Notes: generated by a model from the letters alone, not told the origin. A stretch of 64,000 bases of DNA from an uncultured Alphaproteobacteria bacterium (GCA_944389555.1 CALXMU010000002.1:116433-180432), one strand, 5' to 3'; positions 27,592 through 42,509 are shown, numbered from the stretch's first letter. Translations and numbers: made by a program.

Positions 27592-27668
27592 CGGGGTGTA
27601 GCTCAGTCTGGTAGAGTGCTTGCTTTGGGAGCAAGATGTCGAAGGTTCGAATCCTTTCGCCCCGACCA
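27592..27668 (+). tRNA. tRNA-Pro (anticodon TGG), with CCA encoded
   Basis: Manually folded cloverleaf. Acceptor CGGGGTG/CGCCCCG, D-stem GCTC/GAGT, anticodon stem CTTGC/GCAAG with loop TTTGGGA, T-arm GAAGG-TTCGAAT-CCTTT. Confidence 0.85.
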
Positions 27669-27680
27669 TTAGAATTCCAA

Positions 27681-27704
27681 GTCGCGCAGTGTCGCGACTT
27701 TTTT
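27681..27704 (+). terminator. Terminator after tRNA-Pro
   Basis: GTCGCG-cagtgt-CGCGAC followed by T6. Confidence 0.6.
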
Positions 27705-27888
27705 CGTGTGTCCGCCGCTACCTGCGGGCCTGACGGCTCATGATTGACTCTGGTATTCCGACAATATACGCAAATCCGCCCATAATATCCCGGAATGTAT
27801 ACAATACCCATTTTCGCGGAGTCAATGGGGTTGAAAATTTATGCTATTTTTCTTATATTCCCAGTGAGAAAAAACAAAGGAAAGTCAA

Positions 27889-28659
27889 ATGGATTTAAAA
27901 TCGAAAAAGATTAGTTTTTACGCATTAATTATTGTCGCTTTGGAGCTAATTTTGTTCGGCTTACTTCATAGTTCTAAAATAGCGGTTTTAGCTCAAAGTA
28001 TTGGTGTAAGTATTTTTGCTGCATATATTTTCTATTTTGTTACGATATATGTACCAGCAGAGAAGAAAAAGAAACAAGCAAATAATATTTTACATAGTCC
28101 TATGACAAATGTAAATTCGCATATGGAAAAAATATTAGCTATATTTAATGGGCTTCTAACGGTTACAAAAGATAATACTATCGCGTGCAAAGATGACAGT
28201 ATCGCAAATACCCAAAAAAAAATTTATTTTAAAATAGATAACTTGTTATATTCAGAAAACATATCATCTTTTATAGCCCACAATGTACGTTTATTAAAGA
28301 AAAATATAGATAAAATTGTAGGGAACAGGTGTTTTTATAATTTGGATGAAGAGGTTATAGATAATATATTACGGTTGCAATCTTCTGATTTTTTAATGCA
28401 TTTGGAACATATGCAACTACAAAGAACAGATGATATAAAAATACACTATGGTGATTTATACAAAGACTTTAAAGAATTTAAACAAATATATGTATCTTTG
28501 GCACGAACTAATATTTTGCCAAAAATAGAAATGATGACAGAACAAGAGCGGAAACATTATAATGTGATTGTGCCGGAACTTATTATGAGATCTCAAAGTC
28601 CTGAAATGTCAAAAGTCAGCGCAATCATCCTAAACAATGTGTGTTATATTCCGAAATGA
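27889..28659 (+). CDS. Island hypothetical protein with two N-terminal TM helices
   Basis: Low GC. Its 3' end overlaps the convergent recombinase gene by 35 bp. Confidence 0.4.
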   Translation: MDLKSKKISFYALIIVALELILFGLLHSSKIAVLAQSIGVSIFAAYIFYFVTIYVPAEKKKKQANNILHSPMTNVNSHMEKILAIFNGLLTVTKDNTIACKDDSIANTQKKIYFKIDNLLYSENISSFIAHNVRLLKKNIDKIVGNRCFYNLDEEVIDNILRLQSSDFLMHLEHMQLQRTDDIKIHYGDLYKDFKEFKQIYVSLARTNILPKIEMMTEQERKHYNVIVPELIMRSQSPEMSKVSAIILNNVCYIPK

Positions 28660-30280
28660 CTTTAAACTCCTGTTCCTGGTCGGCGAAATCCTCGTACTTA
28701 CTTGCAATTTGGAATAATGTTTGCAGGTTGATGTGGGGTGGAATTTTGCTGTCCATGATGTCGTTGATAATCCGTGGCGACAGGTATGCCAGATTCAGGT
28801 ATTTATAAATCGTGCGTTGGTCGCGGTTTTCTGTGGTGGCAAGCGCTTTGACACCAATACCGCTTTCATAGGCTTTCTTGTATTTCCAACCATACGCCAA
28901 GGCTTTGATAAGCATGGTTGCATTCTCTGTTTTTGTTAATAAATCCCGACTACATCCAGCGTTTCTGTGATTTATGCAGGTATGGCTGGACAGATAGACA
29001 ACCTGTTCAATAATAACCTGCTTGCTATCGGGACTTGTGCAATATTCCATTGGGATGGCGTTTGTGTTTATATAGCCGTCTTTTCTGAATACGCCCAATT
29101 TATCCAGGTCTGCAATATTTATGAAAATTGTCAGTTTGTGTTCGTGGTACACAATTCGGTCAATTAGCGCGTGGGCCAATTCATCGCTATATTCCAGTTG
29201 TTTTAATGATAGTCGCGTTGTATCTAGCAACGCACCCATATCAGAGTTTAAAAAGTCCCGAACATTATTACAAATGATTGCGTCCAAATCCCCAGCCGGC
29301 AGAGATGTTGTTTCGCATTTGTAGTATTTATATTGCCGTAATCCCTTGTTTCCAGTTTTATTTTTGAACATTGCACCATCGGCGGTATATATCATGTTGT
29401 GAAACAATAATCCGCCGCGGCAATAACTGGCGCGCCCTTTATGATGATTATTGTCGGTCAGTTTTTGCTGTACGGCGTCAAACAGTTCCTGGGTAATAAT
29501 TGCGGGATGTTGGCCATCAAAGACTTCCCCAGTCGATTTATTTGGCAATTTGCCCAGATAAATTTGATTTTTCAAAATCCGTTCAATGATATTTGCGGTC
29601 ATTTCCCGGCCGCCACGTGTTTCGCCTTTACTGGTCGTCCATTGCTTGCCATGAATCCCAAGGGCCGCAATGCGATCCCGGCAATCTAATAAACTGTGGC
29701 TGGCCAGGTATGTATTGAATATCTTATTTACAGTTTCCCGTTCCGTTTCGTTTACAATCAGTTTTCCAAATTGTATGTCATAGCCCAATGGCGGCACGCC
29801 ACCAACCCATAATCCTTTGGACTTGGTCGCACGCATTTTGTCACGGACGCGTTCACTGGCAACCTCGCGTTCAAACTCTGCAAACGATAGCAGCATATTT
29901 AGCGTCAATTTACCCATTGCAGTACTGGTATCAAAACTTTGTGTAATGCTGACCAGGTTGCAATCGTGTGGTTCAAAATCCTCTTTCATCATGCGCTTAA
30001 AATCATAAATACTGCGCGACAGGCGGTCTATTTTATAAACCAGCACGCAATTTATTTTGCCATCCCGCATATCGTCCAACATTTCTTGCAGACCGGGTCG
30101 GGCCATAGTACCGCCGGAAATGGCCGCATCAGAATATGTTTTTACGTATTCCCAGCCTTGGAAAGCCTGTGACGCGATATAGGATTTACAGGCCAGTTCC
30201 TGGTTATCCAGTGAATTAAACTCCATATCCAGTCCACGTTCTGACGATTTGCGTACGTATATAGCACATTGTATTTTCAT
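28625..30280 (-). CDS. Large serine recombinase (resolvase/invertase catalytic domain plus recombinase and zinc-ribbon-like C-terminal domains)
   Basis: AIYVRKSS (catalytic Ser), ...VLVYKIDRLSRS... and ...GGVPPLGYD; about 551 aa. Start refined to MKIQCAIY. Confidence 0.8.
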   Translation of the reverse strand: MKIQCAIYVRKSSERGLDMEFNSLDNQELACKSYIASQAFQGWEYVKTYSDAAISGGTMARPGLQEMLDDMRDGKINCVLVYKIDRLSRSIYDFKRMMKEDFEPHDCNLVSITQSFDTSTAMGKLTLNMLLSFAEFEREVASERVRDKMRATKSKGLWVGGVPPLGYDIQFGKLIVNETERETVNKIFNTYLASHSLLDCRDRIAALGIHGKQWTTSKGETRGGREMTANIIERILKNQIYLGKLPNKSTGEVFDGQHPAIITQELFDAVQQKLTDNNHHKGRASYCRGGLLFHNMIYTADGAMFKNKTGNKGLRQYKYYKCETTSLPAGDLDAIICNNVRDFLNSDMGALLDTTRLSLKQLEYSDELAHALIDRIVYHEHKLTIFINIADLDKLGVFRKDGYINTNAIPMEYCTSPDSKQVIIEQVVYLSSHTCINHRNAGCSRDLLTKTENATMLIKALAYGWKYKKAYESGIGVKALATTENRDQRTIYKYLNLAYLSPRIINDIMDSKIPPHINLQTLFQIASKYEDFADQEQEFKVISEYNTHCLG

Positions 30281-30398
30281 TGTTTTTACCTCTTTGCGTG
30301 TGTGCATTAGTGCTTACAAAACAATGTAAGTCCAGTGGTTTATTAGACTTGACTTATGGGGCTTTGCGAGCGGTAATTGCAACAAAAAAGGATGTAAA

Positions 30399-30806
30399 AT
30401 GAATGAATTAAAACAAATGTCGCCGGATAAATTGCGGGAACTTTGGCGACTATATTTTCAAAATGAAGCCCGACCACAATTGCGCCCACTGTGGTATAAA
30501 ATTCAATGTGCGCGCACTGGGCAAAAAATTGAGCAACGGCATTTAACACGATTGAATAAGTATGCGGCATCGCCGGAATTATGCACATCGCGGGCAAATC
30601 AAACGAAATATCGAATAAAGCCTGGCACACGCATGATAAAGAAATACAAAGGGCGCGAATATACCATTGAAGCACTGGGCAATGACACTTTCCGATATAA
30701 TGGGGCGATTTATAAAACCCTGTCCGCCATCGCGATGACCATCACAGGTCATAAAGTATCGGGTTATGATTTCTTTGGTCTTTATACAAAAAGGAGCAAA
30801 GAATGA
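30399..30806 (+). CDS. Small basic protein, DUF2924-like serine-recombinase companion
   Basis: 135 aa. Its stop overlaps the ATG of the downstream recombinase fragment in the form ATGA. Family assignment is from memory of the DUF2924 / recombinase gene pairing. Confidence 0.4.
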   Translation: MNELKQMSPDKLRELWRLYFQNEARPQLRPLWYKIQCARTGQKIEQRHLTRLNKYAASPELCTSRANQTKYRIKPGTRMIKKYKGREYTIEALGNDTFRYNGAIYKTLSAIAMTITGHKVSGYDFFGLYTKRSKE

Positions 30807-30910
30807 TTTATGGCTATATACGTGTTTCAACCGATAAACAAGACTGCGCAAATCAAAAAGGAGGTAATTTAAGGAGCCCCACCTGGGGTTGTGTATTGAT
30901 AAACACATAG
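30803..30910 (+). pseudogene. Truncated N-terminus of a second serine recombinase (MIYGYIRVSTDKQDCANQKG...) ending in a premature stop after 35 codons
   Basis: A canonical resolvase N-terminus (YIRVSTxxQ) followed by unrelated sequence and a TAG stop. Confidence 0.5.
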
Positions 30911-31002
30911 AAAGCATCAGAATATAATAAGTTTATTACTGATTTCAAACTGTTATACGAGATACTATCGTAAATGTATCTTACAAAAATGAATTTTAAA
31001 GT

Positions 31003-32370
31003 TTAGTGAAAAGATTTTATTATTCTTTTATAAATCTTATTTTGTTCTTTTATCTGTCCACGAAATAAATCAATTATGCTTTCTGACACATCCATATGTT
31101 TCATACACATGAATTTCAGTATTGTTTTACGAGATAGCTTATATTTTGCCCAGGGATTTTCCAGCATAATTTGTTTTTCTCCAAACGAAAATATTATTGC
31201 TGACAATTTATTATCAAGTAAAAACCTGCCGTTGTGTTGCATACGACAAAACAAATCACTTGGCATAACCGGCTCTATGTCTGTTAAAAAACTTTGTTTT
31301 TTATGTTCAAGAGACATTGCTTTGTGTATAAAATTTATAGGCGCATTCTCAAATATTGGATATCCTTTTTTCCCGTATAACGCATACCATATAATATTAG
31401 AGTTTATACATTTATGATTACCAAATCTATTAAATGTTTCTATTGGGAAAGTTGTTTGGTCTAGAGTGTCCAACTCCGACATATCCAGCCATAAAACAAA
31501 AGGGTTCCCTTTTCTCGCTTGATAACTATATATTTTGTCTCCGTTTTTGTTTTTGCATTTTATGCTGCAAATAAAAGAAATATATCGACTTCTAAAATTT
31601 TCATCATAATAGAAGTCTCCTCCTTTTTTGCTAAAAGACATCAAATCTTCTTCAATATATTCTCCATTAGCCTTATTCTTTGGTCTTGGAAATCCTCCTG
31701 GCGCACATTCTTTTATACCAGTGGTTATCGATCCTTGCTTAAAATTAGTAGTATTTGATCTATGATCAATGGTATTTACTTTTTTATTGCTGCTTGTTGG
31801 CGTTGTGTTTTCTATAAACTGGGGGCTATTTACTTCAATATCAAAACTATCCCCCATAAATGACACCTCAAAATCCGGGGTGGCACCCTCAACCTCTTTT
31901 ATATGTTTAATTGAGAAGCCGCCATTTAATAATTCTGCACAAGCAACTATTTCTGCGATAGCGCCATTTATAATAGTTATATCCTTTGATAATAGATTCG
32001 TATTTTTATGATGATTTAAAAAATCACGTAAATTTTGGTTATTGCTGTCAATGATTGTTTGAATAGCATTTTCTAATTTTTGTCCATGAATTGTTATATC
32101 TGCCTTTGGTTGCATTCCACTATGAAGTTCCCTTATCATTGCCCATATTGGATGAGACAAAGTCCCGTTTTTATATGTCATTTTTGATATTTTTTTATAA
32201 TTATCAATCCCGATGCAATTTAAAAGAAAGATACCATTTTTCATAGAAGCATTACTCCTCCCAAGTTTTTGTGCAATAAATACGCCAAAGAATAACTGTT
32301 TTTTCGATTTGAAAAGGGGCGGTAAAGAATGATATATAGATATATCTCCTTTTTCCGTAATCTTCGGCAT
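31003..32370 (-). CDS. Hypothetical 455-aa protein translationally coupled to the endonuclease gene (TAATG overlap)
   Basis: No recognisable domain. Start refined to MPKITEKGD, whose ATG overlaps the TAA stop of the upstream gene by 1 nt. Very AT-rich. Confidence 0.45.
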   Translation of the reverse strand: MPKITEKGDISIYHSLPPLFKSKKQLFFGVFIAQKLGRSNASMKNGIFLLNCIGIDNYKKISKMTYKNGTLSHPIWAMIRELHSGMQPKADITIHGQKLENAIQTIIDSNNQNLRDFLNHHKNTNLLSKDITIINGAIAEIVACAELLNGGFSIKHIKEVEGATPDFEVSFMGDSFDIEVNSPQFIENTTPTSSNKKVNTIDHRSNTTNFKQGSITTGIKECAPGGFPRPKNKANGEYIEEDLMSFSKKGGDFYYDENFRSRYISFICSIKCKNKNGDKIYSYQARKGNPFVLWLDMSELDTLDQTTFPIETFNRFGNHKCINSNIIWYALYGKKGYPIFENAPINFIHKAMSLEHKKQSFLTDIEPVMPSDLFCRMQHNGRFLLDNKLSAIIFSFGEKQIMLENPWAKYKLSRKTILKFMCMKHMDVSESIIDLFRGQIKEQNKIYKRIIKSFH

Positions 32371-34355
32371 TAATTTAAATTCACATATGCCTTTTTTATA
32401 TATGTATAGTACCAATCAACAGGTGCAAGACCTTCTACTTGATAAGCTTCATCAAGACGTTTGTACAAGTCTTTATAGGTTAGCCCTAAGGCAAGTATGG
32501 CTTTTAAAACATCAATTTCCAGAGGGATTATTTTCATACCAACTTGTGTATATGTCTGGTCTGAACGACTATAATATGTCGCATTCTTTCGTAAACGGAA
32601 ATCTGATATAACGTTTGGATCCAAATGGTTCGTCGCGAATATACAATAAGAGTTATTATTGCGAGTTCTTATCAAATAATCACCCAGGTGTCTGGATACA
32701 GGTTCCATTTCCATCCTGCGTTGGTTTGTGGCATCTGCTAGGGTTGCTTCGATAAGAAGACAGTGTTGCGGATAGTAGTCGGAAGCCTCGTATTCATAAA
32801 CGATATCTGCTTCCCCACCGGCAGCATGCGTTTTTGGCAACAAATCTGCATCTAATGATAATTTCATATACTCTAGGACATTTCCTTTACGTTCGCTGAC
32901 TTTATACCACAATATGCCCAATATATATTCAAAAATAGTTGGAACATCGGCATTGTCTGTTACTGTTTCTTGAACAAAAGAATCGTCTCTTGTTTGAAAT
33001 GCGGTCAACAGATCTTGTATCTTATCGTCCGTAAACAACCGATCTATCAAGAGGTTAAATCTCCGTAATCTCTCATTTTTTATAATCTCTCTTGCAGAGA
33101 CCAAATTATTGGCATTTGTCCCAAGTTCGTGATTGATCCCGTCTAATATGGCGGCTTCGTTTATAGTTAAGCACGGCGAAATTTGTTCTAAGCACGTAAC
33201 TTTGTCGAGATCATTATGTGATTCAAATGCGGACAGGTATAGACAATCAGCGATAGGTACAAAGAAGCTTTTTGGTATAAGATCAAACTCTACTTTATCA
33301 TCGTGGAATAATATCAAATCCGTAAGCTTAAAATATCTTCGATTTAAATCAAAGTAGTCATATAATGTGGCTTTTGTTTTGTTTACATGCATTACTTTAA
33401 AAAATGCCTTTTTTAGATCCGTTTCGTTCTGTACGGAGCTAAAAATACAATCATTTAAAGATTCCTCTGGATTGGCTATAATGGCTTTTTCAGAAAACTT
33501 GTTAAACACAAGACTCAGCCAATATTTCCCTGCCGTATTGGATATGCTTCTAGTCGCCTGATATAATATAGGAACCTTAGAAATGTCTTTATCTAAGAAA
33601 ACATCTTTCAAAGCTAAATACAAGAGGTAATATGGCTTATCATAGTTCCTACTCTTACGATTTATACCTATTTCACAGATCAAACTCTCAGTTACTGCAT
33701 TCTCCAGAAAAACAGTTTGTGCCTGCTGATAATTATCCATTTCAATAATGCGGTTAAAAATAACATCTTCTATTGTCTCTTGTCCGAAACGCAGCCTTTG
33801 AATATGTTCAATAATTTCTTGTGTCGTCCCTTGATTTATGCATAACGGTAGCAAATACATGAATTCCTGAAACGAAAGACTCCCTAGCTTTGACAACACG
33901 TACACCAAAACGACAAGCGGACGCACTGTATAGCCAGCCACAACAGAACTTGTTTTTAACAGCTGCTGTGTAAAAATCATACTATCTTTTTGTATTTGGA
34001 AAGCATTATCATCGTCGAAGTTCCCTTCTAGACTTATGTTCAGCAATTTTCTGCCACTTTCCGTCAGATGTCTATCTTGTGTTATCAGCCCAATTTCAAC
34101 TAGTCCAGATGTTTTTTCTCGTGCATCTTTTGGTTTATTCTTAGCTGCACCTTCAACAAACCCTTTTTCTTGCATATAATCATAATATGCTGATTGAACC
34201 GAATTATTGCCATTCCATACAGCATCCTTATTCTTGGGCAAGTTCCAAAAATCATTTAAGAGCAGAAGCTGTTGTTCTATTGTTTTATTGAAATTTTTGG
34301 TTCTGAAACTAGTTGTTCCTAGGTTCCAACAAAAACTTTTATACGGAATCGGCAT
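32370..34355 (-). CDS. Type IIS restriction endonuclease or nicking enzyme of the AlwI/N.BstNBI/PleI/MlyI family
   Basis: 661 aa. The C-terminal catalytic block THAAGGEADIVYEYE...EAT...RRMEMEPVSRH matches the remembered AlwI-family block (THAAGNQPDMEIIYED...EPVTRH in N.BstNBI). Lies immediately downstream of two D12-class m6A methyltransferases. Confidence 0.6.
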   Translation of the reverse strand: MPIPYKSFCWNLGTTSFRTKNFNKTIEQQLLLLNDFWNLPKNKDAVWNGNNSVQSAYYDYMQEKGFVEGAAKNKPKDAREKTSGLVEIGLITQDRHLTESGRKLLNISLEGNFDDDNAFQIQKDSMIFTQQLLKTSSVVAGYTVRPLVVLVYVLSKLGSLSFQEFMYLLPLCINQGTTQEIIEHIQRLRFGQETIEDVIFNRIIEMDNYQQAQTVFLENAVTESLICEIGINRKSRNYDKPYYLLYLALKDVFLDKDISKVPILYQATRSISNTAGKYWLSLVFNKFSEKAIIANPEESLNDCIFSSVQNETDLKKAFFKVMHVNKTKATLYDYFDLNRRYFKLTDLILFHDDKVEFDLIPKSFFVPIADCLYLSAFESHNDLDKVTCLEQISPCLTINEAAILDGINHELGTNANNLVSAREIIKNERLRRFNLLIDRLFTDDKIQDLLTAFQTRDDSFVQETVTDNADVPTIFEYILGILWYKVSERKGNVLEYMKLSLDADLLPKTHAAGGEADIVYEYEASDYYPQHCLLIEATLADATNQRRMEMEPVSRHLGDYLIRTRNNNSYCIFATNHLDPNVISDFRLRKNATYYSRSDQTYTQVGMKIIPLEIDVLKAILALGLTYKDLYKRLDEAYQVEGLAPVDWYYTYIKKAYVNLN

Positions 34356-34369
34356 ACTAAACTTCCTTT

Positions 34370-35287
34370 TTAATAATTTATTATCAAAACTTCCTCGCTA
34401 GAATCTGTCTTGTCCTTAGTTTGATAATTGGAGTTCGCATAAGTATATCTTAATGGAATTACTTTGTATTTGTCAATATTATTGCTGAGCCACTGTAGCA
34501 AGACACTATTTTCCTTACCTTTACTTCTCAACACATTAGAAAGCGCAAACTTCGTTCCATATTGATGAAGCCTATCCAGAAACTTTAGGAGGTCTTTTTC
34601 TGTTTGAATATTCCAACCGCCTTGTTCATTATATGTGGCGCAAGTAATTAAATATGGAGGATCTACATATACAAAATCATCTGGACCTAATGCTTCTATA
34701 TCAAAATCTCGAAAATCTTTACACATAAACCGGCACTCCTGCTCATGCAATCTATCGATGAAAGAAGACAACTTTGTCGCCATATTGGAATTAAAGTCTC
34801 TTTTCCCCACAGGCAAATTAAAATCGCCATGAGCGTTAAAACGTATCTGATTGTTAAATGCATAAACAATCAAAACATATAAGACCACATAATAGTAATA
34901 GTCCTCGTTTAACTTCGTATTAAAATCGTCACGCAACTTTAGAAATTTATCTTTATTATACGGTCCCAATCCCGTACTACTGTCACAACCATAATAATCG
35001 TATCCATGCAAACTAACGAGTGAAAGATTGTATTTATCTATTATTTGATAAACCCAATCAAATACGGCTTTTTTATCAAGATTTTTTAGTGTGTTATACA
35101 GACAAATAAGCTCTCTATTGAGGTCATTATATATCACAGAATTAGACTGAACATTTATTCCAACATTGCAGCCGCCACAAAACAAATCCACAAAAGTATT
35201 TATTTTCTTTGGGAACAGAGGCAAAATCTGGGATAAAAGTTTTGCCTTTCCACCGGTATAATTAAGAGGGGATTGTATGAAAGGCAA
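34370..35287 (-). CDS. Dam-family (D12 class) N6-adenine DNA methyltransferase
   Basis: Motifs SPLNYTGGKAKLL (Dam PFLKWAGGK-like), FCGGCNV and FVYVDPPY. Confidence 0.75.
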   Translation of the reverse strand: MPFIQSPLNYTGGKAKLLSQILPLFPKKINTFVDLFCGGCNVGINVQSNSVIYNDLNRELICLYNTLKNLDKKAVFDWVYQIIDKYNLSLVSLHGYDYYGCDSSTGLGPYNKDKFLKLRDDFNTKLNEDYYYYVVLYVLIVYAFNNQIRFNAHGDFNLPVGKRDFNSNMATKLSSFIDRLHEQECRFMCKDFRDFDIEALGPDDFVYVDPPYLITCATYNEQGGWNIQTEKDLLKFLDRLHQYGTKFALSNVLRSKGKENSVLLQWLSNNIDKYKVIPLRYTYANSNYQTKDKTDSSEEVLIINY

Positions 35288-36322
35288 TTATGTTCCTTTT
35301 GGGTAGCATGTACATAAGAACAATCTCTCCTCATTGTCTTCTATATCGGATTTTCCTGTGGTAAAGGCTTTGTATTCTGTGGAAAAGATTTTGACAGTTC
35401 CTTTGGCACTTAGAATACGCATAATGTCTTCATCCGATATTTTTGCGTTGGATCGATCGTTGCCTTTTTGGGACATGTTATTATATGATAACAATATATA
35501 TTTTGCATTTATACTCTGAATTAAATCTTCGAAAGATTTAGTAGCTTGATTAGTGCAATACTTGCTTTTTATGTTGGAACGATCCATCTTTTTTGCAACA
35601 CCGTACACTGTTGGTTTCTGCCATCTGGCAACATTTTCAAGTAAATGGTAGGCATCGCAATACTGTCTGGAATTATATGGCGGATCTATGTATACCAAAT
35701 CTGCATATATATCTTTTACCAACTGATTGGCGTCAAGATTAAAACATTTGTTCAGTTTATTATTCGTTTTTGGCGCAAGTGGCACATATAATTCCAAAGC
35801 AGTGTCATAAGAGCTACCTTTTCTATAAGCATCATAATGCCCGCATGTCTGAGCTATTTTGTCCATCGCATATAGCAAAGATGTAATCAGAATAGCGCGT
35901 TCTCGTTCATTTATAAATTTTTGTTTAAACAATCGCTCAATATCACTGCGTATATAGCCAATCTTCGAACAGTCTTCCTTGCTGAAATATGTATCCGCAA
36001 AGTTTTGTGTCATGTAGTTAGATTTGCATGATTCAAGGGCATTGTACCGCTTTATCAAGTCTATAATCTTTTTTTTACTATAAGATTCTGTCCCAAACCA
36101 AGCATAGTTACAGATATAATTACTATACATCAAATCATTTGTGATTATGGCTAATTTATCACAAAAAGCTGACGAAACCGCACCCGTTCCAGCAAAAATA
36201 TCTGCCAGCGAAGTAATCCCTGGACATTCCTTTGCGACGATCTCACTGATAAATGGCAACAATTTGTATTTGTTGCCTAAATAACGTCGATTGTTAATTT
36301 TGGACGTTTTATAGCCCTGCAT
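35288..36322 (-). CDS. Second D12-class N6-adenine DNA methyltransferase
   Basis: Motif I DIFAGTGAV and motif IV LVYIDPPYN. Its stop abuts the start of the downstream MTase. Confidence 0.65.
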   Translation of the reverse strand: MQGYKTSKINNRRYLGNKYKLLPFISEIVAKECPGITSLADIFAGTGAVSSAFCDKLAIITNDLMYSNYICNYAWFGTESYSKKKIIDLIKRYNALESCKSNYMTQNFADTYFSKEDCSKIGYIRSDIERLFKQKFINERERAILITSLLYAMDKIAQTCGHYDAYRKGSSYDTALELYVPLAPKTNNKLNKCFNLDANQLVKDIYADLVYIDPPYNSRQYCDAYHLLENVARWQKPTVYGVAKKMDRSNIKSKYCTNQATKSFEDLIQSINAKYILLSYNNMSQKGNDRSNAKISDEDIMRILSAKGTVKIFSTEYKAFTTGKSDIEDNEERLFLCTCYPKGT

Positions 36323-36583
36323 TATCCTTTCCCTTCATTAGAGAATTTAGAACAAAACGTGTATATAAGTCAAGAAACAAACGACATGGGCTCGGGCAAG
36401 ATGACACGTAATTTGTCAAGCAACCTAAAAACACAATTTAGGCTTGTAGCTCTCCATTCATAATATTCCCTCATATCTAGGAACGGAGTTCTAGGCTTAG
36501 CAGTTCATCTGGCACTATTCACACAATAAATATTGTACTCAGATTCGCTGTCCTGCGGCATACTTGCATATCGAATTACTCTA

Positions 36584-36611
36584 TTGATATTTCTAGGGTT
36601 TTATGTATAAT
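36584..36611 (+). promoter_or_regulatory. Sigma70-like promoter of the KAP NTPase gene (TTGATA, 16 bp spacer, TATAAT)
   Basis: Located in the divergent intergenic region. Confidence 0.35.
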
Positions 36612-36633
36612 GGCAAAAAAATAGGATATAATC

Positions 36634-38271
36634 GTGGCTAATAACAATACGGTATCTGTTGACGTTTGGGGAAACGATAAATTGGACATTAGGGAAAAGG
36701 TCATTGGATTTGCCGACATATTGAAGCAGGAGAAATTTACAGAACACGGTACATCCAGGGTATATTCTATTTCTGCGGAATTTGGTATTGGGAAAACGTT
36801 CTTTTGCGAAAAGTTACGTGATGTGTTAGAGCAAGATGGCGTACCTGTATCTATGCTGAACATATGGAAAATGGATTTTTACGAAAACCCGCTTGTCCCG
36901 TTACTTATTAAGCTACAGGATACATATACGCAATATTACAACACTCCTGAAGGTTTCCCAAATCCGAAAACACTTTTAAATGCGTTTAAATCCTTGGCGG
37001 CAGGAATTTCTGTTGAGGCACATGCCCCATTGTTCGGGAAAATAGTTATTGATGGTGAAAAAATCATCAGTCGTCATGAAAACCTAAAAAAGACTGCAGA
37101 GGAGAATAGTATCTATTCCGAATATAAACAATTTAAAACAGAATTAGATAATTTGAAATCGTTTTTAGGCAATTGGGCACGTGAAGCAAATAACCCTATT
37201 ATTATCATAATTGATGAACTTGACCGTTGCCGTCCGGATTATGCTGTTAAAACACTGGAAATACTAAAGCATTTCTTTGATATTCCAGGTTTTGTATTTA
37301 TTTTGGCTATAGATGAGGAACAATTAAAGAACTCTGTCGAAACATTGTTTGGCACAAAAAATTTTGATGGCTATAAACGCAAATTTATAAATAACTCGTT
37401 TTTATTACCAGCGCCAGACAAGGTAAAATTTACAGATTATTTATATGAAAAATCTGGATTGGCTGACATTGTGAAACAAATAGAGGCAAATAAACAAGAT
37501 TTAGTATTTAAAACAGTTATCAAGAATCTAGAACTCAGACATTTTAACAGAGACAAGTCTCTCAGTGCTGAGCAAACTTTTAATAAAAATCAAACAACAG
37601 AAAATATAATTAAACGGTATTTTGCTGCGTACAGTATATGGTTTCAATTTTCTTTGCGACGAATGGAACAAGTGTTTGATAGGCTGGTATTATTCTCTAA
37701 AAACATACTAAGTAGCAATGAATTATATTCACCCGATTTGGCTGTTTTATTGGTGTGTTTACATGAGTTTGATTTAAAAATATATGATAAACTACGATTG
37801 TCTTCGTTTAGAGTATATGGTCAGCATGGAGGCCTATTGAGACACATTTATAATACCAGTAGAAACGATTTCTCTTTTGCGAGATCTGTATATGCCGATA
37901 AAGCAGACGATATGTTCAGCACATTAAATCGCACTTTGATACCTAAAGTTCCTGAAATCCAGGGCTTCTCGACAACCGAACCAACTGGACAAACGTATAT
38001 AGTTATTATTCACGATGATGTTGATAGATTCTTTGTTGCAGAAGAATCACAAAAACATCCTTTAGCGTGGATTGTTGAAATACAAGATTTTGAGTCTGGC
38101 GTACGATCCATGGTACAAAACAATGGACGAATAGCAGTAATAACCAATTCAAAACGAGATGCTGCTTGGAAAGATGGGCCTGCTGATATAGATACAGCAA
38201 GTCAATTTAATCTTGAACAATTCAGGAAGAATTATTTTGATAAGATGGATTTTGTATCTAATTTTAAATAG
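36634..38271 (+). CDS. KAP-family P-loop NTPase
   Basis: Walker A GIGKTFF, the hallmark IIIIDELDRCRPDYAV (Walker B plus DRC), and a hydrophobic insert region. GTG start. Confidence 0.7.
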   Translation: MANNNTVSVDVWGNDKLDIREKVIGFADILKQEKFTEHGTSRVYSISAEFGIGKTFFCEKLRDVLEQDGVPVSMLNIWKMDFYENPLVPLLIKLQDTYTQYYNTPEGFPNPKTLLNAFKSLAAGISVEAHAPLFGKIVIDGEKIISRHENLKKTAEENSIYSEYKQFKTELDNLKSFLGNWAREANNPIIIIIDELDRCRPDYAVKTLEILKHFFDIPGFVFILAIDEEQLKNSVETLFGTKNFDGYKRKFINNSFLLPAPDKVKFTDYLYEKSGLADIVKQIEANKQDLVFKTVIKNLELRHFNRDKSLSAEQTFNKNQTTENIIKRYFAAYSIWFQFSLRRMEQVFDRLVLFSKNILSSNELYSPDLAVLLVCLHEFDLKIYDKLRLSSFRVYGQHGGLLRHIYNTSRNDFSFARSVYADKADDMFSTLNRTLIPKVPEIQGFSTTEPTGQTYIVIIHDDVDRFFVAEESQKHPLAWIVEIQDFESGVRSMVQNNGRIAVITNSKRDAAWKDGPADIDTASQFNLEQFRKNYFDKMDFVSNFK

Positions 38272-38560
38272 GTCCTCTGTCCAAAGGCACGCATTTTTCT
38301 GCATTCGCTGCAAATATGTTGTATGTAGAGTATATTTCCCTGATACGCCTCAATAAATTCCCTGTTATTTTACGGAAATTTTGGTGGAAAGTGCGGAAAT
38401 CTGATGTTTGTGCACGGACGTGCGGTCAAAATTCGCTGTAGATTCCCTGTTAATCCCTGAAAATGAGTATTCTGGTATCCGTTTTTTAGCAACTAAATAC
38501 CGACCGACCAGAAAATTCAAACCGTCGCAAATGCGGCGGTTTTAATTTTCTGCTTGGAAC

Positions 38561-38917
38561 GTGCATATTCAAACAAAAGTCGTTAATTTAGGTTATGCTG
38601 ATTTATCCAACGTTCGTGAAATAAAATGGCCTTCAAAAGAAATTAGTGGCTTAAATAGTACTAAAAATCTACCGTCCGTTTTGGATTTTAGTCATACAGA
38701 TGAAGTTAATTTATCTGAGGCAGATTTGTCTATGGTACGCAAAATAAAATGGCTGATAGAAAAAGTTCTCGGTGATTATTGCTTGGCAAATTGGCCGCAG
38801 CATATTCAGAAATCATATAAATATTGGAAAGGAAGTTTAGCAATAAAAAACGCTGTTAAAAACCAAGTACAAGATATGGGTACAAAAATACAACAAATTT
38901 TTATGGACCGTAATTAA
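38561..38917 (+). CDS. Hypothetical protein with an internal duplication ([Y/E]ADLSxVRxIKW x2)
   Basis: ORF only. No family recognised. Confidence 0.3.
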   Translation: MHIQTKVVNLGYADLSNVREIKWPSKEISGLNSTKNLPSVLDFSHTDEVNLSEADLSMVRKIKWLIEKVLGDYCLANWPQHIQKSYKYWKGSLAIKNAVKNQVQDMGTKIQQIFMDRN

Positions 38918-39022
38918 GAATAGTTTGTATAAAGCATATAATACAAAAGGTGTTTGAATCTGGTTGAATCCTGTTTTTTATACTTTATAATCAATATAAA
39001 ACAAATATTAGGAGTTAGAGAA

Positions 39023-39364
39023 ATGTACAGATTTCCAGGATTATTTTTGGTGGGGGCTTCGTTTGTTTTATGTGCTTGTGCTGAAAATAAGGCAGAAGTT
39101 ATTAGCGGCACTTTGACTATGGGGCATGAAGTTAGGGCTTTCGTTCCAGATGGTCAAGATAAGGAATTTTGGCTGATAGATAAATCAGGGGATTTATACG
39201 AACAATATCAAAAAGTTGCGCCGATAGAATCTGGAGCTTATATACCGGTTCTGGCAGAATTAAAAGTAACAGAATTACCAAAAATGCAGGACGGTTTCGG
39301 GGCAGAATATGACGGTACATATGATGTCATTGAAACCATTTCAATAACCCCGATAAAAAAATGA
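39023..39364 (+). CDS. Lipoprotein (113 aa)
   Basis: RBS AGGAG and lipobox LCAC. Start refined from the ORF-track position. Confidence 0.5.
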   Translation: MYRFPGLFLVGASFVLCACAENKAEVISGTLTMGHEVRAFVPDGQDKEFWLIDKSGDLYEQYQKVAPIESGAYIPVLAELKVTELPKMQDGFGAEYDGTYDVIETISITPIKK

Positions 39365-39373
39365 GGTGATACT

Positions 39374-39937
39374 ATGAAAAAAATATCTATAATTGCATTT
39401 TCTTTATTACCGACAATTGCTTTTGCTAGTGATGCTGAAGATTGGAAAATTTATTTAAGAGCAGACGCAGGTATAACGTATTCTGATTTAACCGTAGATG
39501 ATTATGATTTGGGCGGTTTTCAGGGTATGTTTAATTTTGTCGCCGGCGGTCAGAAAGGGCCTTGGCGCGCAGAATTAGCGTATCAGGAACGCGCAACTGT
39601 AAGTGAATTATTTAGTTCGTTATTGACGCAAACTATGGCTTCTATGGAACAGCACGCTTTATTGCTGAATGGTTATTATGATGTTTGGTCTTCAAAATAT
39701 TTCGCTTGGTACGTTGGGGCGGGTGCGGGCTTAAATAGTTATGAAAAAGTAATTACCTATCAAAACACAGGAACAGAGGTTAGTGAAGACGGTTATTCTG
39801 CTATCCTTGGAGCCTATACAGGTTTGAGTCTAAACTTTGAACATATAGGAATTGATTTAGGGGTTGATTATTATTATACCTATAAACCAAATTTAAATTC
39901 TTTGGTACCCAAAATCGGTTTGCGTGTGATTTTCTAG
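39374..39937 (+). CDS. Small outer-membrane beta-barrel protein (OmpW/porin-family-like)
   Basis: Signal peptide, alternating amphipathic beta-strands and a C-terminal ...GLRVIF. Confidence 0.55.
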   Translation: MKKISIIAFSLLPTIAFASDAEDWKIYLRADAGITYSDLTVDDYDLGGFQGMFNFVAGGQKGPWRAELAYQERATVSELFSSLLTQTMASMEQHALLLNGYYDVWSSKYFAWYVGAGAGLNSYEKVITYQNTGTEVSEDGYSAILGAYTGLSLNFEHIGIDLGVDYYYTYKPNLNSLVPKIGLRVIF

Positions 39938-39955
39938 GTTGAAATAGTTTTATTA

Positions 39956-39988
39956 AAGACGGGCTTTCTGCCCGTCGATTTTTATTTG
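39956..39988 (+). terminator. Rho-independent terminator
   Basis: GACGGGC-tttct-GCCCGTC followed by a T-run. Confidence 0.6.
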
Positions 39989-40029
39989 ATTATACTTTGT
40001 TTTTGTGGTATACTTATACTAAATAAGTT

Positions 40030-40057
40030 TGTCGGGTCAAGTGTCCCGACATTTTTT
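40030..40057 (+). terminator. Second terminator-like hairpin
   Basis: TGTCGGG-tcaagtgt-CCCGACA followed by T6. Confidence 0.5.
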
Positions 40058-40066
40058 GTTTTTAGG

Positions 40067-40088
40067 TCCCGTAATACGGGCTTTTTTT
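40067..40088 (+). terminator. Third terminator-like hairpin, directly abutting the ATG of the lysozyme-like gene
   Basis: CCCGT-aat-ACGGG followed by CT7, immediately before ATGGAG. Confidence 0.45.
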
Positions 40089-40622
40089 ATGGAGATTTTT
40101 ATGAAAGATAAAAACTTTGAGGAAGCAATAGAAAAACTTTTTATAAATGAGGGCGGGTATACACCAGGTGCTAATCAAATTAAAGACTTTCCAACTAATA
40201 TGGGGATTCAGCAGAAGACTTTGGATAGATATAATTTGATGTTTCCATATAAGAATTTTCCGAAAGATGTTAAATTATTACAGAAAAATCAAGCATATGA
40301 AATATATAAGGAAATGTATTGGGACAACACAAAGATTCCGCAGATAAAAAATGCACGTATTAGAAATGCAGTTTTTGATATGAACGTTATGGGGGGCGCG
40401 GGCATAGTCATACAACGGGCATTAAATGGTTTTCTTGGCGCTGGTTTAATAGAGGATGGGGTAATCGGTAATTCAACGTTGAAAGGGATAAATTCTATTT
40501 CAGATGATAGTGTAAATCCTTTTATGGATATATTAAAGCTGGTAAGAATAAATTATCTGAAGGGTACTATAAATTGGTCGACCGCGAAAAACGGTTGGAT
40601 AAATAGAACAAATAAATATTAA
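40089..40622 (+). CDS. GH108-like lysozyme N-domain plus peptidoglycan-binding domain protein (phage-endolysin / secretion-activator type)
   Basis: EKLFINEGGYTPGANQ...MGIQQKTLDRY resembles the GH108 N-terminal motif (EGGY...GIT). The C-terminal region resembles a PG_binding_3 domain. Confidence 0.45.
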   Translation: MEIFMKDKNFEEAIEKLFINEGGYTPGANQIKDFPTNMGIQQKTLDRYNLMFPYKNFPKDVKLLQKNQAYEIYKEMYWDNTKIPQIKNARIRNAVFDMNVMGGAGIVIQRALNGFLGAGLIEDGVIGNSTLKGINSISDDSVNPFMDILKLVRINYLKGTINWSTAKNGWINRTNKY

Positions 40623-40718
40623 CTAAGGATTAGTTTCAAAAAAACATCCATTGAATTTTATATGTAGTATACTATAATAAACATATAATAATGTATTTGT
40701 TGAAAGGGGGGAATATAA

Positions 40719-41336
40719 ATGCCAAGAGTAAAAAGTGAAAAATCTAAAAAAGCGAAATCAAGTCAGGGTACAAATCTAATTACAAATTCTGTTAAGCGCT
40801 TATATAATCAAAGCGCACCACTATTGATATGTGAGGCTTTATTATTTGGCATAGCCGCAATATTTATGATAATTAAACCAGTTGCGGTTCTAACGGCGTT
40901 AACGTTTGTGATAGGTGTTGCGCTGGTATTGTTTGGTTTGTACAGAACTATAGCGGGTTTTATCGTTTCTCGTGATGTTGGGGGTGGTTGGTTTGATGTG
41001 GTGTTTGGTTTGGTAAACGTTGTTTTAGGCGTTTTATTCTGTATTTACCCAGTTGGATCGGTAGTTAGTTTGGTTTACATTTTTGTGTTACTGTTTTTAT
41101 TCAAATCTTTACGTGCGTTGATATTTTCAATAAATATGATACGCGCCAAATTTGGGCATTATTGGTTTGATTTGATAATGTCTATTATATTGATTGCGCT
41201 AGCGGTTTTCTTATTGTTTTATCCGGTTGCTGGTGCGGTCGTTATGATTTATTATTTGGCGATAACATTATTACTATATGCGGCGGCAGATTTATATATG
41301 TATATAGAATTGCTGCGTTTGAAAAAATTAGTATAA
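40719..41336 (+). CDS. Multi-pass membrane protein (HdeD/DUF308-like repeats)
   Basis: Six predicted TM helices with repeated G/L-rich segments. Confidence 0.4.
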   Translation: MPRVKSEKSKKAKSSQGTNLITNSVKRLYNQSAPLLICEALLFGIAAIFMIIKPVAVLTALTFVIGVALVLFGLYRTIAGFIVSRDVGGGWFDVVFGLVNVVLGVLFCIYPVGSVVSLVYIFVLLFLFKSLRALIFSINMIRAKFGHYWFDLIMSIILIALAVFLLFYPVAGAVVMIYYLAITLLLYAAADLYMYIELLRLKKLV

Positions 41337-41411
41337 ATAATATAAATTATTTCTTTTACAACTCTTGGGGCATCCAAGAGTTGCTTTTTTATGTCTCAAA
41401 ATTAAATACTG

Positions 41412-41442
41412 AAAAGCCCCGCCAAAAATGACGGGGCTTTTT
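41412..41442. terminator. Bidirectional terminator that also serves tRNA-Arg
   Basis: AAAGCCCCG-ccaaaaatga-CGGGGCTTT. Confidence 0.5.
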
Positions 41443-41448
41443 AAAAAC

Positions 41449-41525
41449 TGGCGCGCCCTGCAGGATTCGAACCTGCGACCTGCGGATTAGAAATCCGATG
41501 CTCTATCCAGCTGGGCTAAGGGCGC
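41449..41525 (-). tRNA. tRNA-Arg (anticodon TCT), with CCA encoded
   Basis: The reverse complement folds as GCGCCCT-TA-GCCC..GAGC-A-TCGGA-TTTCTAA-TCCGC-AGGTC-GCAGG-TTCGAAT-CCTGC-AGGGCGC-G-CCA. Confidence 0.85.
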
Positions 41526-41675
41526 GTTAGCGCAATTCTATAATATTTATATTCAAATTTCAAGCCAAACACAGATTTTTATTGTTATAAATACATCTTC
41601 TTTTTGTGAAATCGTTCCTGTGTAGTAAAAAATTTACTTGTGTTATACTTACGGCATGTAAAAAGGGAGTTTCGT

Positions 41676-42146: not shown

Positions 42147-42176
42147 AAAAAAACCGCCAATTTGGGCGGTTTTTTA
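42145..42176. terminator. Bidirectional terminator
   Basis: A9-CCGCC-aatttg-GGCGG-T6. Confidence 0.55.
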
Positions 42177-42509
42177 AATCTTTAAAATTCTAGCCTTTGG
42201 GTCGCCTATATTTAAGTATTTTAACCCCAACTCTTCAACATAATCAGAACTATATCCCTGTAATAATTCAATGTGTCGACGAATTGCTTTTAATTCGGCT
42301 TGCTCTGCCGCAAGTTGTTCTTGTTCGCCATTTAATCGCCATATGTTCATTATTAAACGTTGAACGTTTACTTCGCCCCAGAACATACGTACAAACATGA
42401 ACGCGGCGAATATCAGCAGCAGTATACCAAATTTCCCGTATATACCGTCTGACCAAGCACGTTTCATAAATCCAAAGAAATTTTTGATTTTTTCCTTCAT
42501 CGGTGGCAT
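42174..42509 (-). CDS. FtsB/DivIC-like septum formation initiator
   Basis: N-terminal TM helix followed by a coiled coil (QLAAEQAELKAIRRHIELLQ). Confidence 0.5.
   Translation of the reverse strand: MPPMKEKIKNFFGFMKRAWSDGIYGKFGILLLIFAAFMFVRMFWGEVNVQRLIMNIWRLNGEQEQLAAEQAELKAIRRHIELLQGYSSDYVEELGLKYLNIGDPKARILKI

What the first reader, a model, noticed from the sequence alone, without database searches (positions are those of the whole stretch)
27669..38560. Low-GC genomic island of about 11 kb inserted next to tRNA-Pro and carrying a large serine recombinase
Immediately 3' of tRNA-Pro(TGG), base composition drops and gene content switches from housekeeping genes to island genes. These are a membrane protein, a 551-aa large serine recombinase, a DUF2924-like companion, a recombinase remnant, a restriction-modification operon and a KAP NTPase. 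Housekeeping-type genes resume near 39 kb (lipoprotein and OMP). Taken together this is a mobile or once-mobile defence island. The right boundary is uncertain. An exact 11-bp direct repeat ATTCCCTGTTA (38357 and 38442) and a GCACGGACGTGC palindrome lie in the 290-bp non-coding stretch at 38272..38560.
Basis: partly seen in the sequence, partly recalled or inferred. Interest (0 to 1): 0.5.

Follow-up and report, generated by a model that had tools for sequence, protein, structure and literature searches.

The report
Serine-recombinase defence island at tRNA-Pro
This is a real 10.8-kb mobile island carrying anti-phage genes, inserted by a large serine recombinase exactly at the 3' end of a tRNA-Pro gene in an uncultured gut alphaproteobacterium; it is ordinary as an island but belongs to a little-described recombinase family that habitually sits next to tRNA genes.

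Summary
The island is real and its ends are now exact: window 27669..38510 (10,842 bp). A 7-bp direct repeat, CCGACCA, flanks it; this is the last 7 nt of tRNA-Pro(UGG). A conspecific genome (GCA_949296585.1) has the precise empty site. Other strains carry different elements at the same tRNA end.

- a 2-TM protein
- a 551-aa large serine recombinase (LSR)
- DUF2924
- a 20-codon stub of a small resolvase
- an AlwI-type restriction-modification operon plus an orphan 455-aa gene
- a KAP NTPase (PADLOC PDC-S20)

GC content does not define the boundary. The LSR module is GC-richer than the host, and the non-island flank up to 42.4 kb is as AT-rich as the cargo.

The 11-bp repeats are not att repeats. 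They belong to a helically phased array of TTCCCTG half-sites next to the attP core. I found this array in relatives with different tRNA targets and in 76 metagenome contigs.

Across the family, DUF2924 is adjacent to the LSR in 75 of 80 loci. A tRNA 3' end faces the LSR gene in 32 of 66 loci (P about 4e-46).

This is a new variant of a known kind, of moderate interest.

The parts
27592..27668 (+). tRNA-Pro(UGG), the integration target. It stays intact after insertion.
   Evidence: ARAGORN; Rfam tRNA, 67 bits.
27662..27668 (+). attL core: CCGACCA, the last 7 nt of the tRNA and the left copy of the direct repeat. The crossover must lie inside it.
   Evidence: Comparison of attB, attL and attR.
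27669..38510 (.). The island: 10,842 bp.
   Evidence: blastn against empty-site locus L007: L007 1-9016 = window 18650-27668, and L007 9010-9195 = window 38504-38691.
27679..27700 (+). Island-borne hairpin plus T-run. It replaces the native terminator of tRNA-Pro.
   Evidence: Terminator scan. Every occupant of this site supplies its own hairpin.
27889..28659 (+). 256-aa protein with two N-terminal hydrophobic helices. This is a variable slot between attL and the LSR; relatives carry other genes here.
   Evidence: ORF. No hit in Pfam, PADLOC, NCBIfam or PHROGs. Slot contents in relatives.
28625..30280 (-). Large serine recombinase, 551 aa (the ORF extends to 30307). Its 3' end points at the tRNA.
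30399..30806 (+). DUF2924 protein, 135 aa, the conserved partner of the LSR. Its C-terminal half is RAMA-like.
30803..30910 (+). 5' stub of a small serine recombinase gene. Homology with related islands ends at 30859, which marks the left cargo-swap breakpoint.
   Evidence: tblastn 20/21 identical to the intact 198-aa resolvases of L003 and L011; blastn breakpoint.
31003..32370 (-). Orphan 455-aa gene, last in the restriction-modification operon. Its start overlaps the REase stop.
   Evidence: No hit in any family library. Only 98 representatives in 1.84 billion proteins; none of the 10 scanned has a Pfam domain.
32370..34355 (-). AlwI-family type II(S) restriction endonuclease, 661 aa.
   Evidence: Pfam RE_AlwI 3.8e-71; PADLOC REase_II 9.7e-34.
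34370..36322 (-). Two adjacent D12-class N6-adenine methyltransferases (35288..36322 and 34370..35287).
   Evidence: Pfam. The two proteins map to positions 72-410 and 417-715 of one 722-position fused MTase profile, PDLC03292.
36634..38271 (+). KAP-family P-loop NTPase with about 210 aa of uncharacterised C-terminus; a candidate defence gene.
   Evidence: Pfam KAP_NTPase 3.1e-34; PADLOC PDC-S20 2e-66, PifA and QatA weaker. KAP NTPases fused to an unknown C-terminal region were shown to be antiphage in PMC13552941.
38334..38462 (+). Conserved non-coding array of TTCCCTG-type half-sites in two clusters. Matches to T[TC]CCTG start at 38337, 38359, 38444 and 38454, and a degenerate TTCGCTG starts at 38432.
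   Evidence: Alignments A1 and A3. 76 metagenome contigs carry the exact 22-mer. Phasing of 11 and 21-22 bp. No RNA structure and no Rfam family.
38463..38510 (+). Right-end attP half-site region. It ends in the second CCGACCA copy (38504..38510).
   Evidence: Conserved GTATGG ... TTAC ... CCNCCA pattern in A3.
38519..38542 (+). Native tRNA-Pro terminator hairpin, displaced to the attR flank. It lies outside the island.
   Evidence: Terminator scan. It follows the tRNA directly in the empty site.

Best explanation
This is an integrative defence island of an uncultured gut alphaproteobacterium (Candidatus Enterousia). Its own large serine recombinase (LSR) inserted it at the extreme 3' end of the tRNA-Pro(UGG) gene.

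Integration. The LSR recombines an attP site with attB. attP is formed by joining the island's right end (...AAATACCGACCGACCA) to its left end (TTAGAATTCCAAGTCG...). attB is the T-arm and acceptor 3' strand of the tRNA plus its A-rich downstream region. The 2-bp staggered crossover lies somewhere inside the shared CCGACCA. The tRNA stays intact and receives a terminator hairpin supplied by the island.

Modules. The island has three parts:
- a conserved left module (variable small gene, LSR, DUF2924, small-resolvase stub)
- a swappable cargo, 30860..38328: an AlwI-type restriction-modification system with split MTases, an orphan 455-aa gene and a KAP NTPase
- a conserved right module: a phased TTCCCTG half-site array plus an attP half-site

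Accessory array. I infer that the array is an accessory protein-binding site. It would be bound by the RAMA-like DUF2924 protein and/or by the LSR's C-terminal domain, which in the model resembles KorB/ParB. Its role would be to help assemble or regulate the attP complex.

Shown and inferred. The boundaries, the empty site, the modularity and the family-wide linkage to tRNA genes and DUF2924 are shown. The crossover chemistry, the identity of the array-binding protein, the excision factor and the route of cell-to-cell transfer are inferred. No transfer genes are present.
For: - Empty site and exact junctions.
- Alternative occupants of the same tRNA end in strains sharing an identical flanking gene.
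- LSR domains and catalytic residues. Structure.
- Same architecture in relatives (tRNA 3' end, small gene, LSR, DUF2924, cargo) at tRNA-Pro, tRNA-Lys and tRNA-Ser, with 6-7 bp identity blocks that end at CCA.
- Family statistics: DUF2924 adjacent in 75 of 80 loci; a facing tRNA within 1.6 kb in 32 of 66 loci, P about 4e-46.
- Cargo-swap breakpoints at 30859 and 38329.
- Defence content.
- Array conservation and helical phasing.
- An attP-type junction (right end joined to left end) of a tRNA-Lys-type relative, on contig L157.
- Host taxon.
Against: - No attP (circle) junction of this island was found in the one metagenome collection I could scan, so current mobility is unproven.
- The island has no conjugation, packaging or replication genes.
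- The small resolvase is truncated.
- No canonical zinc-ribbon domain is detectable, and no Cys is conserved in residues 290-450. The enzyme is therefore an atypical LSR whose activity cannot be assumed.
- A test for protein columns that co-vary with presence of the array was inconclusive.
- The exact TTCCCTG array is present in only 3 of 80 species-representative loci within the flanks held.
Confidence: 0.85

Rival explanations
1. This is a decayed, immobile remnant. The block entered once through an LSR-mediated event but is now fixed and kept only for its defence genes. The 'empty' strains simply never received it.
For: There are no transfer or packaging genes. The small resolvase is truncated. 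No circle junction was found. Decayed relatives exist, with only LSR fragments next to the array (L126, L157, L168).
Against: The LSR ORF is full length with all family-invariant residues, and both att ends are intact. The same conserved ends flank different cargo in other strains and species, and copies are 100% identical across several samples. This pattern fits recent activity.
Confidence: 0.12
2. The conserved ~180-bp right-end region encodes a structured non-coding RNA (for example a guide or bridge-like RNA that sets the tRNA target) rather than protein-binding DNA.
For: Sequence conservation is extreme: an identical 22-mer occurs in contigs of 30-65% GC from many different metagenome sources, judging by record names that include human gut, activated sludge and TARA ocean samples. 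The region lies next to the recombination core. The family uses at least 11 different tRNA species as neighbours.
Against: RNAalifold finds 0 consensus pairs in 20 aligned sequences, and no Rfam family matches. The conserved units are short half-sites in direct and inverted orientation, with 11-bp and 21-22-bp phasing and non-complementary spacers. The inverted third half-site is lost in the window's clade.
Confidence: 0.05
3. A recombinase other than the LSR set the island's boundaries. Candidates are a tyrosine integrase of a neighbouring or lost element, or the small resolvase. On this view the LSR is only cargo.
For: tRNA 3' ends are the classic targets of tyrosine integrases. Use of t(m)RNA genes by serine integrases was rated rare and unproven (14 of 297; PMC7192596). 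The locus is a multi-element hotspot with tandem relics.
Against: There is no tyrosine recombinase in the island. The LSR sits at the tRNA-proximal end in the same orientation in relatives at three different tRNAs and in 32 of 66 family loci. The identity block is only 6-7 bp, which is typical of serine recombinases rather than tyrosine integrases.
Confidence: 0.04

Closest known systems
Serine-integrase mobile elements (phiC31, Bxb1, A118, SPbeta SprA, SCCmec Ccr)
   Same: An N-terminal resolvase catalytic domain plus a recombinase domain. The integrase gene sits at one end of the element. There is a very short identity block between attP and attB, and insertion at the 3' extremity of a conserved gene leaves that gene functional (as SCCmec does at rlmH). 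The best structural matches are these enzymes.
Wolbachia prophage WO recombination module (large serine recombinase next to a DUF2924 protein)
   Same: The same gene pair: the WO LSRs align over 95% of this LSR at 29-30% identity, and DUF2924 is adjacent to the recombinase in WO (PMC11376236 and PMC10299305). Both hosts are Alphaproteobacteria.
   Different: WO is a ~65-kb tailed prophage (size as stated in PMC10299305). From memory, not checked here, it is not reported at tRNA ends. The element here is a 10.8-kb island with no phage structural genes and defence cargo.
tRNA-targeting islands driven by tyrosine integrases (P4-like islands, PICI-like elements, tycheposons)
   Same: Site-specific insertion at a tRNA 3' end with restoration of the tRNA. 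Hotspots hold several or tandem occupants. Cargo is swappable and often defensive. 27 of 937 tycheposon-like elements carry an LSR instead of a tyrosine recombinase (bioRxiv 10.1101/2020.12.28.424599).
   Different: The recombinase chemistry is serine, not tyrosine. The direct repeat is 7 bp rather than tens of bp. There is no Xis-type gene, replication module or packaging module.
Arm-type or accessory sites of other site-specific recombination systems (lambda attP arms; res sites II and III of Tn3/gamma-delta resolvase)
   Same: Phased short repeats lie beside the crossover core and point towards it, and they are conserved independently of the core.
   Different: This is an analogy only. Binding has not been shown, and accessory sites are not a known feature of large serine integrases.
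Defence loci marked by small serine recombinases, and KAP NTPase defence proteins (PMC13552941)
   Same: Related islands carry an intact 198-aa small resolvase directly upstream of the defence cargo, and the window keeps its stub at the cargo breakpoint. The cargo includes a KAP NTPase with an unknown C-terminal region.
   Different: Here the small resolvase is destroyed. Its role in cargo exchange is inferred only from the breakpoint position.

Membership tests
Site-specific integrative genomic island in a tRNA gene | Present in some strains and precisely absent (empty site) in conspecific strains | tested here: met
   L007 (GCA_949296585.1) joins window 27668 directly to 38511, with flanks 98-99% identical.
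Site-specific integrative genomic island in a tRNA gene | Integrase gene near one end; short direct repeat of the target at both ends; target gene left intact | tested here: met
   The LSR gene ends 0.96 kb from attL. CCGACCA lies at 27662-27668 and 38504-38510. The tRNA is complete.
Site-specific integrative genomic island in a tRNA gene | Base composition distinct from the host | tested here: inconclusive
   Island 0.362 against 0.394 for the rest of the window. The LSR module is 0.43, and the non-island flank 38511-42400 is 0.345.
Site-specific integrative genomic island in a tRNA gene | Evidence of excision (attP or circle junction) | tested here: inconclusive
   No exact attP junction of this island in JGI metagenome contigs. 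An attP-type junction of a tRNA-Lys-type relative exists (L157).
Large serine recombinase (serine integrase) | Resolvase-type catalytic domain with the nucleophilic Ser and conserved Arg residues | tested here: met
Large serine recombinase (serine integrase) | Recombinase domain (PF07508) after the long alpha-E helix | tested here: met
Large serine recombinase (serine integrase) | Zinc-ribbon domain with Cys ligands and an embedded coiled coil | tested here: not met
   No Zn_ribbon_recom hit even at E<=10 on residues 290-551. No Cys is invariant beyond C107 in A2. No PDB sequence match for the C-terminal 262 aa. The fold of residues 297-449 remains unassigned.
Large serine recombinase (serine integrase) | Simple att sites of ~40-50 bp with a 2-bp crossover and no accessory sites | not testable with these tools
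   The 7-bp identity block is compatible with this. However, a conserved repeat array lies 45-175 bp from the core.
AlwI-family type II(S) restriction-modification system | REase with the RE_AlwI domain plus two adenine MTase activities (one per strand) | tested here: met
   RE_AlwI 3.8e-71. The two D12 MTases map to the two halves of a fused MTase profile.
AlwI-family type II(S) restriction-modification system | Recognition sequence and cleavage activity | not testable with these tools
   GGATC and GAGTC are not depleted beyond the general GATC depletion, which is uninformative.
KAP NTPase defence proteins (PADLOC PDC-S20; PifA-like) | KAP P-loop NTPase domain | tested here: met
   PF07693 3.1e-34; PDC-S20 2e-66.
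KAP NTPase defence proteins (PADLOC PDC-S20; PifA-like) | Protection against phage | not testable with these tools
   Only the literature analogy is available (PMC13552941).
Phage WO-type LSR-DUF2924 module | DUF2924 gene adjacent to a homologous LSR | tested here: met
   Adjacent in the window and in 75 of 80 family loci. The WO LSR is 29-30% identical over 95% of the length.
Phage WO-type LSR-DUF2924 module | Embedded in a tailed prophage | tested here: not met
   No structural, terminase or lysis genes lie in 27669-38510.
RNA-guided recombinase systems (IS110 bridge-RNA type) | Conserved structured ncRNA at the element end | tested here: not met
   RNAalifold finds 0 pairs; no Rfam hit above chance.

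The most novel reading that the evidence does not exclude
The LSR-DUF2924 pair defines a distinct class of serine integrases. This class habitually targets the CCA-proximal 3' ends of tRNA genes and has been retargeted among at least 11 tRNA species. Unlike the 'simple-site' LSRs used in genome engineering, it uses a composite attP: a core plus a phased array of TTCCCTG half-sites. The array would be read by an extra DNA-binding module, either the LSR's KorB/ParB-like C-terminus or the RAMA-like DUF2924 protein. Functionally this would resemble the arm sites of lambda Int or the res accessory sites of resolvases, and it may control directionality.
Probability: 0.3. Interest if true: 0.7.

Novelty: new variant of a known kind. 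Interest (0 to 1): 0.5.

Why it matters
As a genomic island this is routine, and now precisely mapped. The wider point concerns the recombinase family.

[quoted passage not shown] Here a large, mostly alphaproteobacterial clade behaves differently:
- it sits against tRNA 3' ends in about half of the loci examined
- it nearly always travels with a small RAMA-like DNA-binding protein
- in one sub-clade it carries a very strongly conserved repeat array beside attP

If the array and the partner protein prove functional, this would be a serine-integrase system with accessory sites. It would also offer a ready-made set of enzymes aimed at conserved tRNA ends. The locus additionally shows how defence cargo is exchanged between fixed integration and attachment modules, and it supplies an uncharacterised 455-aa gene linked to a restriction-modification operon.

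Tried and rejected
1. Long att direct repeats: none are present. Only the 7-bp block found by comparison with the empty site.
2. GC content as a boundary marker: rejected. The flank to 42.4 kb is equally AT-rich.
3. The 11-bp repeats as att repeats: rejected. They are internal half-sites of a conserved array.
4. The GCACGGACGTGC palindrome: imperfect and not conserved.
5. Dyad symmetry in attP: none stands out, at most 12 of 25 positions.
6. attP junction search in metagenome contigs: 0 hits.
7. Array motif in IMG/VR: one hit (L100), judged a chance match in a region with continuous sequence unlike the array context.
8. MT839917.1, a 5.4-kb 'Bacteriophage sp.' contig with an LSR 45% identical to this one: no terminal repeat, tRNA or array cluster, so it is no evidence for a circular form.
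9. ncRNA hypothesis for the right end: no structure and no Rfam family.
10. Protein columns discriminating array-positive from array-negative loci: only weak signals in the LSR C-terminus and none in DUF2924. The result is inconclusive, because array-negative status is uncertain when the distal island end is not held.
11. Depletion of restriction sites (GGATC, GAGTC): uninformative.
12. Function of the 455-aa and 256-aa proteins: no family hits.

Full report
**1. Observation**

ARAGORN and Rfam place tRNA-Pro(UGG) at 27592..27668 on the + strand.
- a 256-aa protein with two N-terminal hydrophobic helices
- a large serine recombinase (LSR) on the minus strand, with Resolvase and Recombinase domains. 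Homologues are 541-551 aa, so the 551-aa start at 30280 is the likely one.
- a DUF2924 protein
- an operon of two D12-class adenine methyltransferases, an AlwI-family endonuclease and an unassigned 455-aa gene
- a KAP NTPase

The 'recombinase remnant' is real. Window 30803..30910 encodes the first ~20 residues, including the RVST catalytic motif, of a small resolvase. That gene is intact (198 aa) at the same position in related islands. The two exact ATTCCCTGTTA copies are at 38357 and 38442.

**2. Boundaries and the empty site**

I looked up the exact 361-aa protein encoded just left of the tRNA, and the 187-aa outer-membrane-like protein on the right, in public assemblies. This returned conspecific contigs.

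One of them is L007 (NCBI GCA_949296585.1). In it the tRNA is followed at once by GAAAATTCAAACCGTCGCATTTGCGGCGG..., the sequence that follows window 38510. The island is therefore 27669..38510, or 10,842 bp.

A 7-bp direct repeat, CCGACCA, flanks the island at 27662-27668 and 38504-38510. It is the last 7 nt of the tRNA. To the right of CCA, attL and attR share no in-register dinucleotide, so the crossover must lie within those 7 nt.

The native tRNA terminator hairpin (38519-38542) has been displaced to the attR flank. The island supplies a replacement hairpin with a T-run at 27679-27700.

The host is a Candidatus Enterousia species: its UvrA falls in the same 90%-identity cluster as a Candidatus Enterousia excrementavium protein.

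**3. Composition**

The island averages 0.362 GC against 0.394 for the rest of the window, but it is heterogeneous. The LSR+DUF2924 module is 0.43 and the cargo 0.345. The non-island stretch 38511..42400 is also 0.345. Composition alone would have misplaced the right boundary.

**4. The locus is a hotspot and the island is modular**

Strains with the identical flanking gene carry different occupants at the same tRNA end:
- the same island (100% identical in several samples)
- the same LSR/DUF2924 module (92% nucleotide identity) with different cargo, followed by a second element with a PcfJ-domain gene (L003/L008)
- a different island whose LSR is 47% identical (L002)
- a phage-tail gene (L004)

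Each occupant brings its own terminator hairpin. Extra CCCGACCA fragments mark tandem relics.

Homology between the window and L003/L008 stops at 30859, inside the resolvase stub, and resumes at 38329. This gives three parts: a conserved left module, a 7.5-kb exchangeable cargo, and a conserved ~180-bp right module.

**5. Cargo**

PADLOC assigns the endonuclease and both MTases to type II restriction-modification. The two MTases align to the two halves of one fused 722-position MTase profile, so this is a split version of an M.AlwI-like enzyme.

The KAP NTPase matches the candidate defence family PDC-S20 (2e-66). It has an unassigned ~210-aa C-terminus, like the KAP proteins recently shown to be antiphage (PMC13552941).

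The 455-aa gene has no hit in Pfam, PADLOC, NCBIfam or PHROGs. Only 98 distant representatives exist in 1.84 billion proteins, and none of the 10 I scanned has a Pfam domain.

**6. The recombinase family**

More distant LSR homologues show the same layout: tRNA 3' end, one small variable gene, LSR pointing at the tRNA, DUF2924, then cargo. This holds at tRNA-Pro (70% identity), tRNA-Lys(CUU) (59%) and tRNA-Ser(GGA) (54%). The cargo differs each time: an Eco57I-like MTase with a ResIII helicase; HSP70 with an AAA ATPase; AAA_13 with a terminase-like gene.

Their right ends carry 6-bp copies of the respective tRNA ends, CCACCA and CCGCCA, always running to the terminal CCA.

I scanned one genome per species with an LSR profile, which gave 80 loci, mostly from Alphaproteobacteria. 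Two associations stand out:
- DUF2924 lies immediately upstream of the LSR in 75 of 80 loci.
- In 32 of 66 loci with enough flank, a tRNA gene lies within 1.6 kb downstream with its 3' end facing the LSR. The background probability is about 0.01, giving a binomial P of about 4e-46.

The neighbouring tRNAs include Lys, Ser, Pro, Gln, Val, Phe, Ala, Tyr, Thr, Met and Cys.

The literature rates tRNA use by serine integrases as rare and unproven: 14 of 297 islands, 'experimental proof will be required' (PMC7192596). A few LSR-bearing tycheposon-like elements are known. The DUF2924-LSR pairing is noted for Wolbachia phage WO, whose LSR is 29-30% identical to this one over 95% of its length.

**7. 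The enzyme is an atypical LSR**

Pfam and PDB sequence searches cover only the catalytic and recombinase domains. The C-terminal 262 residues match nothing, and no Cys is conserved there.

The DUF2924 model (pLDDT 75) best matches a CcrM chain solved in complex with DNA, then MPND and a SAND domain. Equating these with RAMA-type DNA-binding modules rests on my prior knowledge of those proteins, but it agrees with the weak Pfam RAMA hit and with PMC11342252.

**8. The right-end non-coding element**

The ~180 bp before the right end are conserved at 78-84% in the tRNA-Pro relatives. In blocks, they are also conserved in the tRNA-Lys and tRNA-Ser relatives.

An exact search for ATTCNCTGTARATTCCCTGTTA found 76 metagenome contigs. 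Their record names include human-gut, activated-sludge and TARA ocean samples, and their GC ranges from 30% to 65%.

The unit is a TTCCCTG(T/A)TA half-site. The sites form two clusters roughly 85-100 bp apart: one with 21-22-bp spacing and one with 11-bp spacing. In GC-rich relatives there are additional inverted copies (TTCCCTG-N10-CAGGGAA) whose spacers are not complementary.

RNAalifold predicts no consensus pairs, and Rfam has no family for this region. I therefore read it as protein-binding DNA.

Two geometries occur:
- As in the window, the array lies ~57 nt from the tRNA-like ...CCA end, on the LSR-distal arm.
- In many GC-rich relatives the order is DUF2924, LSR, array, then the facing tRNA gene, whose 3' end lies 196 bp (or close to it) from the array start in most of them.

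In both geometries the array points towards the crossover core.

Contig L157 joins the right end of a tRNA-Lys-type element directly to its left end. That is an attP-type junction, and it supports the termini as defined here.

The exact TTCCCTG array is restricted to part of the family: 3 of 80 representative loci within the flanks held. Other members show different short repeats, such as CAGAGAC, in the same place.

**9. Mechanism**

This combines what is shown with what follows from the established chemistry of serine integrases.

LSR dimers bind attP and attB and synapse. They cut both strands with a 2-bp stagger within CCGACCA, rotate the half-sites and religate. The tRNA is preserved because attP supplies the same terminal nucleotides and a terminator.

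The conserved T-arm in the attB left half plausibly explains how the family switches between tRNAs.

DUF2924 and/or the LSR C-terminus probably bind the array. DUF2924 is also the obvious candidate for a directionality factor.

The route of cell-to-cell transfer is unknown.

**10. Verdict**

The finding and its interpretation hold, with corrected boundaries. The island itself is an ordinary kind of element. The family-level features make it a new variant of a known kind, of moderate interest: habitual association with tRNA 3' ends, an obligatory RAMA-like partner, no detectable zinc ribbon, and a conserved phased repeat array.

Noticed in passing
window 41449-41525 (tRNA-Arg(tct), - strand); L009 12121-16280: This looks like a second integration hotspot. 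In strain L009, homology to the window stops at 41495, inside the tRNA-Arg gene. A block with a HaeIII-type REase and a C5 MTase follows.
   Followed up: partly
window 38511-42400: This non-island flank is as AT-rich (GC 0.345) as the island cargo. It holds a GH108 muramidase-like gene (40029-40622), a lipoprotein and an OMP-like gene. It could be an older, fixed acquisition.
   Followed up: no
window 38561-38917: The 118-aa ORF just outside the island contains an internal 123-bp repeat (72% identical). It matches repeats at the 3' ends of PcfJ-domain genes that occupy this position in L008 and L009, so it may be a relic of such a gene.
   Followed up: partly
window 31003-32370 (-): This 455-aa gene is translationally coupled to the AlwI-like endonuclease. 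It has no family assignment anywhere. Only 98 distant representatives, mostly about 350 aa, exist in 1.84 billion proteins, and none of the 10 scanned has a Pfam domain. It is a candidate new accessory or defence protein.
   Followed up: partly
whole window: GATC is strongly under-represented: observed/expected 0.43 under a maximal-order Markov model. GGATC and GAGTC are not depleted beyond that.
   Followed up: no
L008 6637-6720; L011 3100-3290 and 12436-12589: There are tandem relics at the tRNA-Pro hotspot: extra CCCGACCA or 19-nt tRNA 3' fragments, and short terminator-bearing stubs between elements. Odd palindromic T-arm-like pieces (GGGATTCGAACCTTCGAGGCAGAAGGTTCGAACC) also occur.
   Followed up: partly
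L122 (JGI Ga0209099_1000002) 1920-9990: This is a complete window-type island at tRNA-Pro in a 558-kb metagenome contig. Its attL and attR are followed by about 70 bp of near-identical sequence, including the terminator. The direct repeat there is much longer than in the window.
   Followed up: partly
L015/L020 (OZ246409.1, labelled 'uncultured Muribaculaceae', 716-kb chromosome) 2016-9494: A relative's cargo is an HSP70-like 831-aa protein, an AAA ATPase, a 583-aa protein and DUF6804, possibly an uncharacterised defence system. The taxon label looks doubtful for a genome carrying this alphaproteobacterial-type module.
   Followed up: no
L028-L089, between the LSR stop and the facing tRNA: Distant family members lack TTCCCTG. 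They show other short repeats in the same arm, for example CAGAGACCG three times in L080 and GAGACGG twice in L073.
   Followed up: partly
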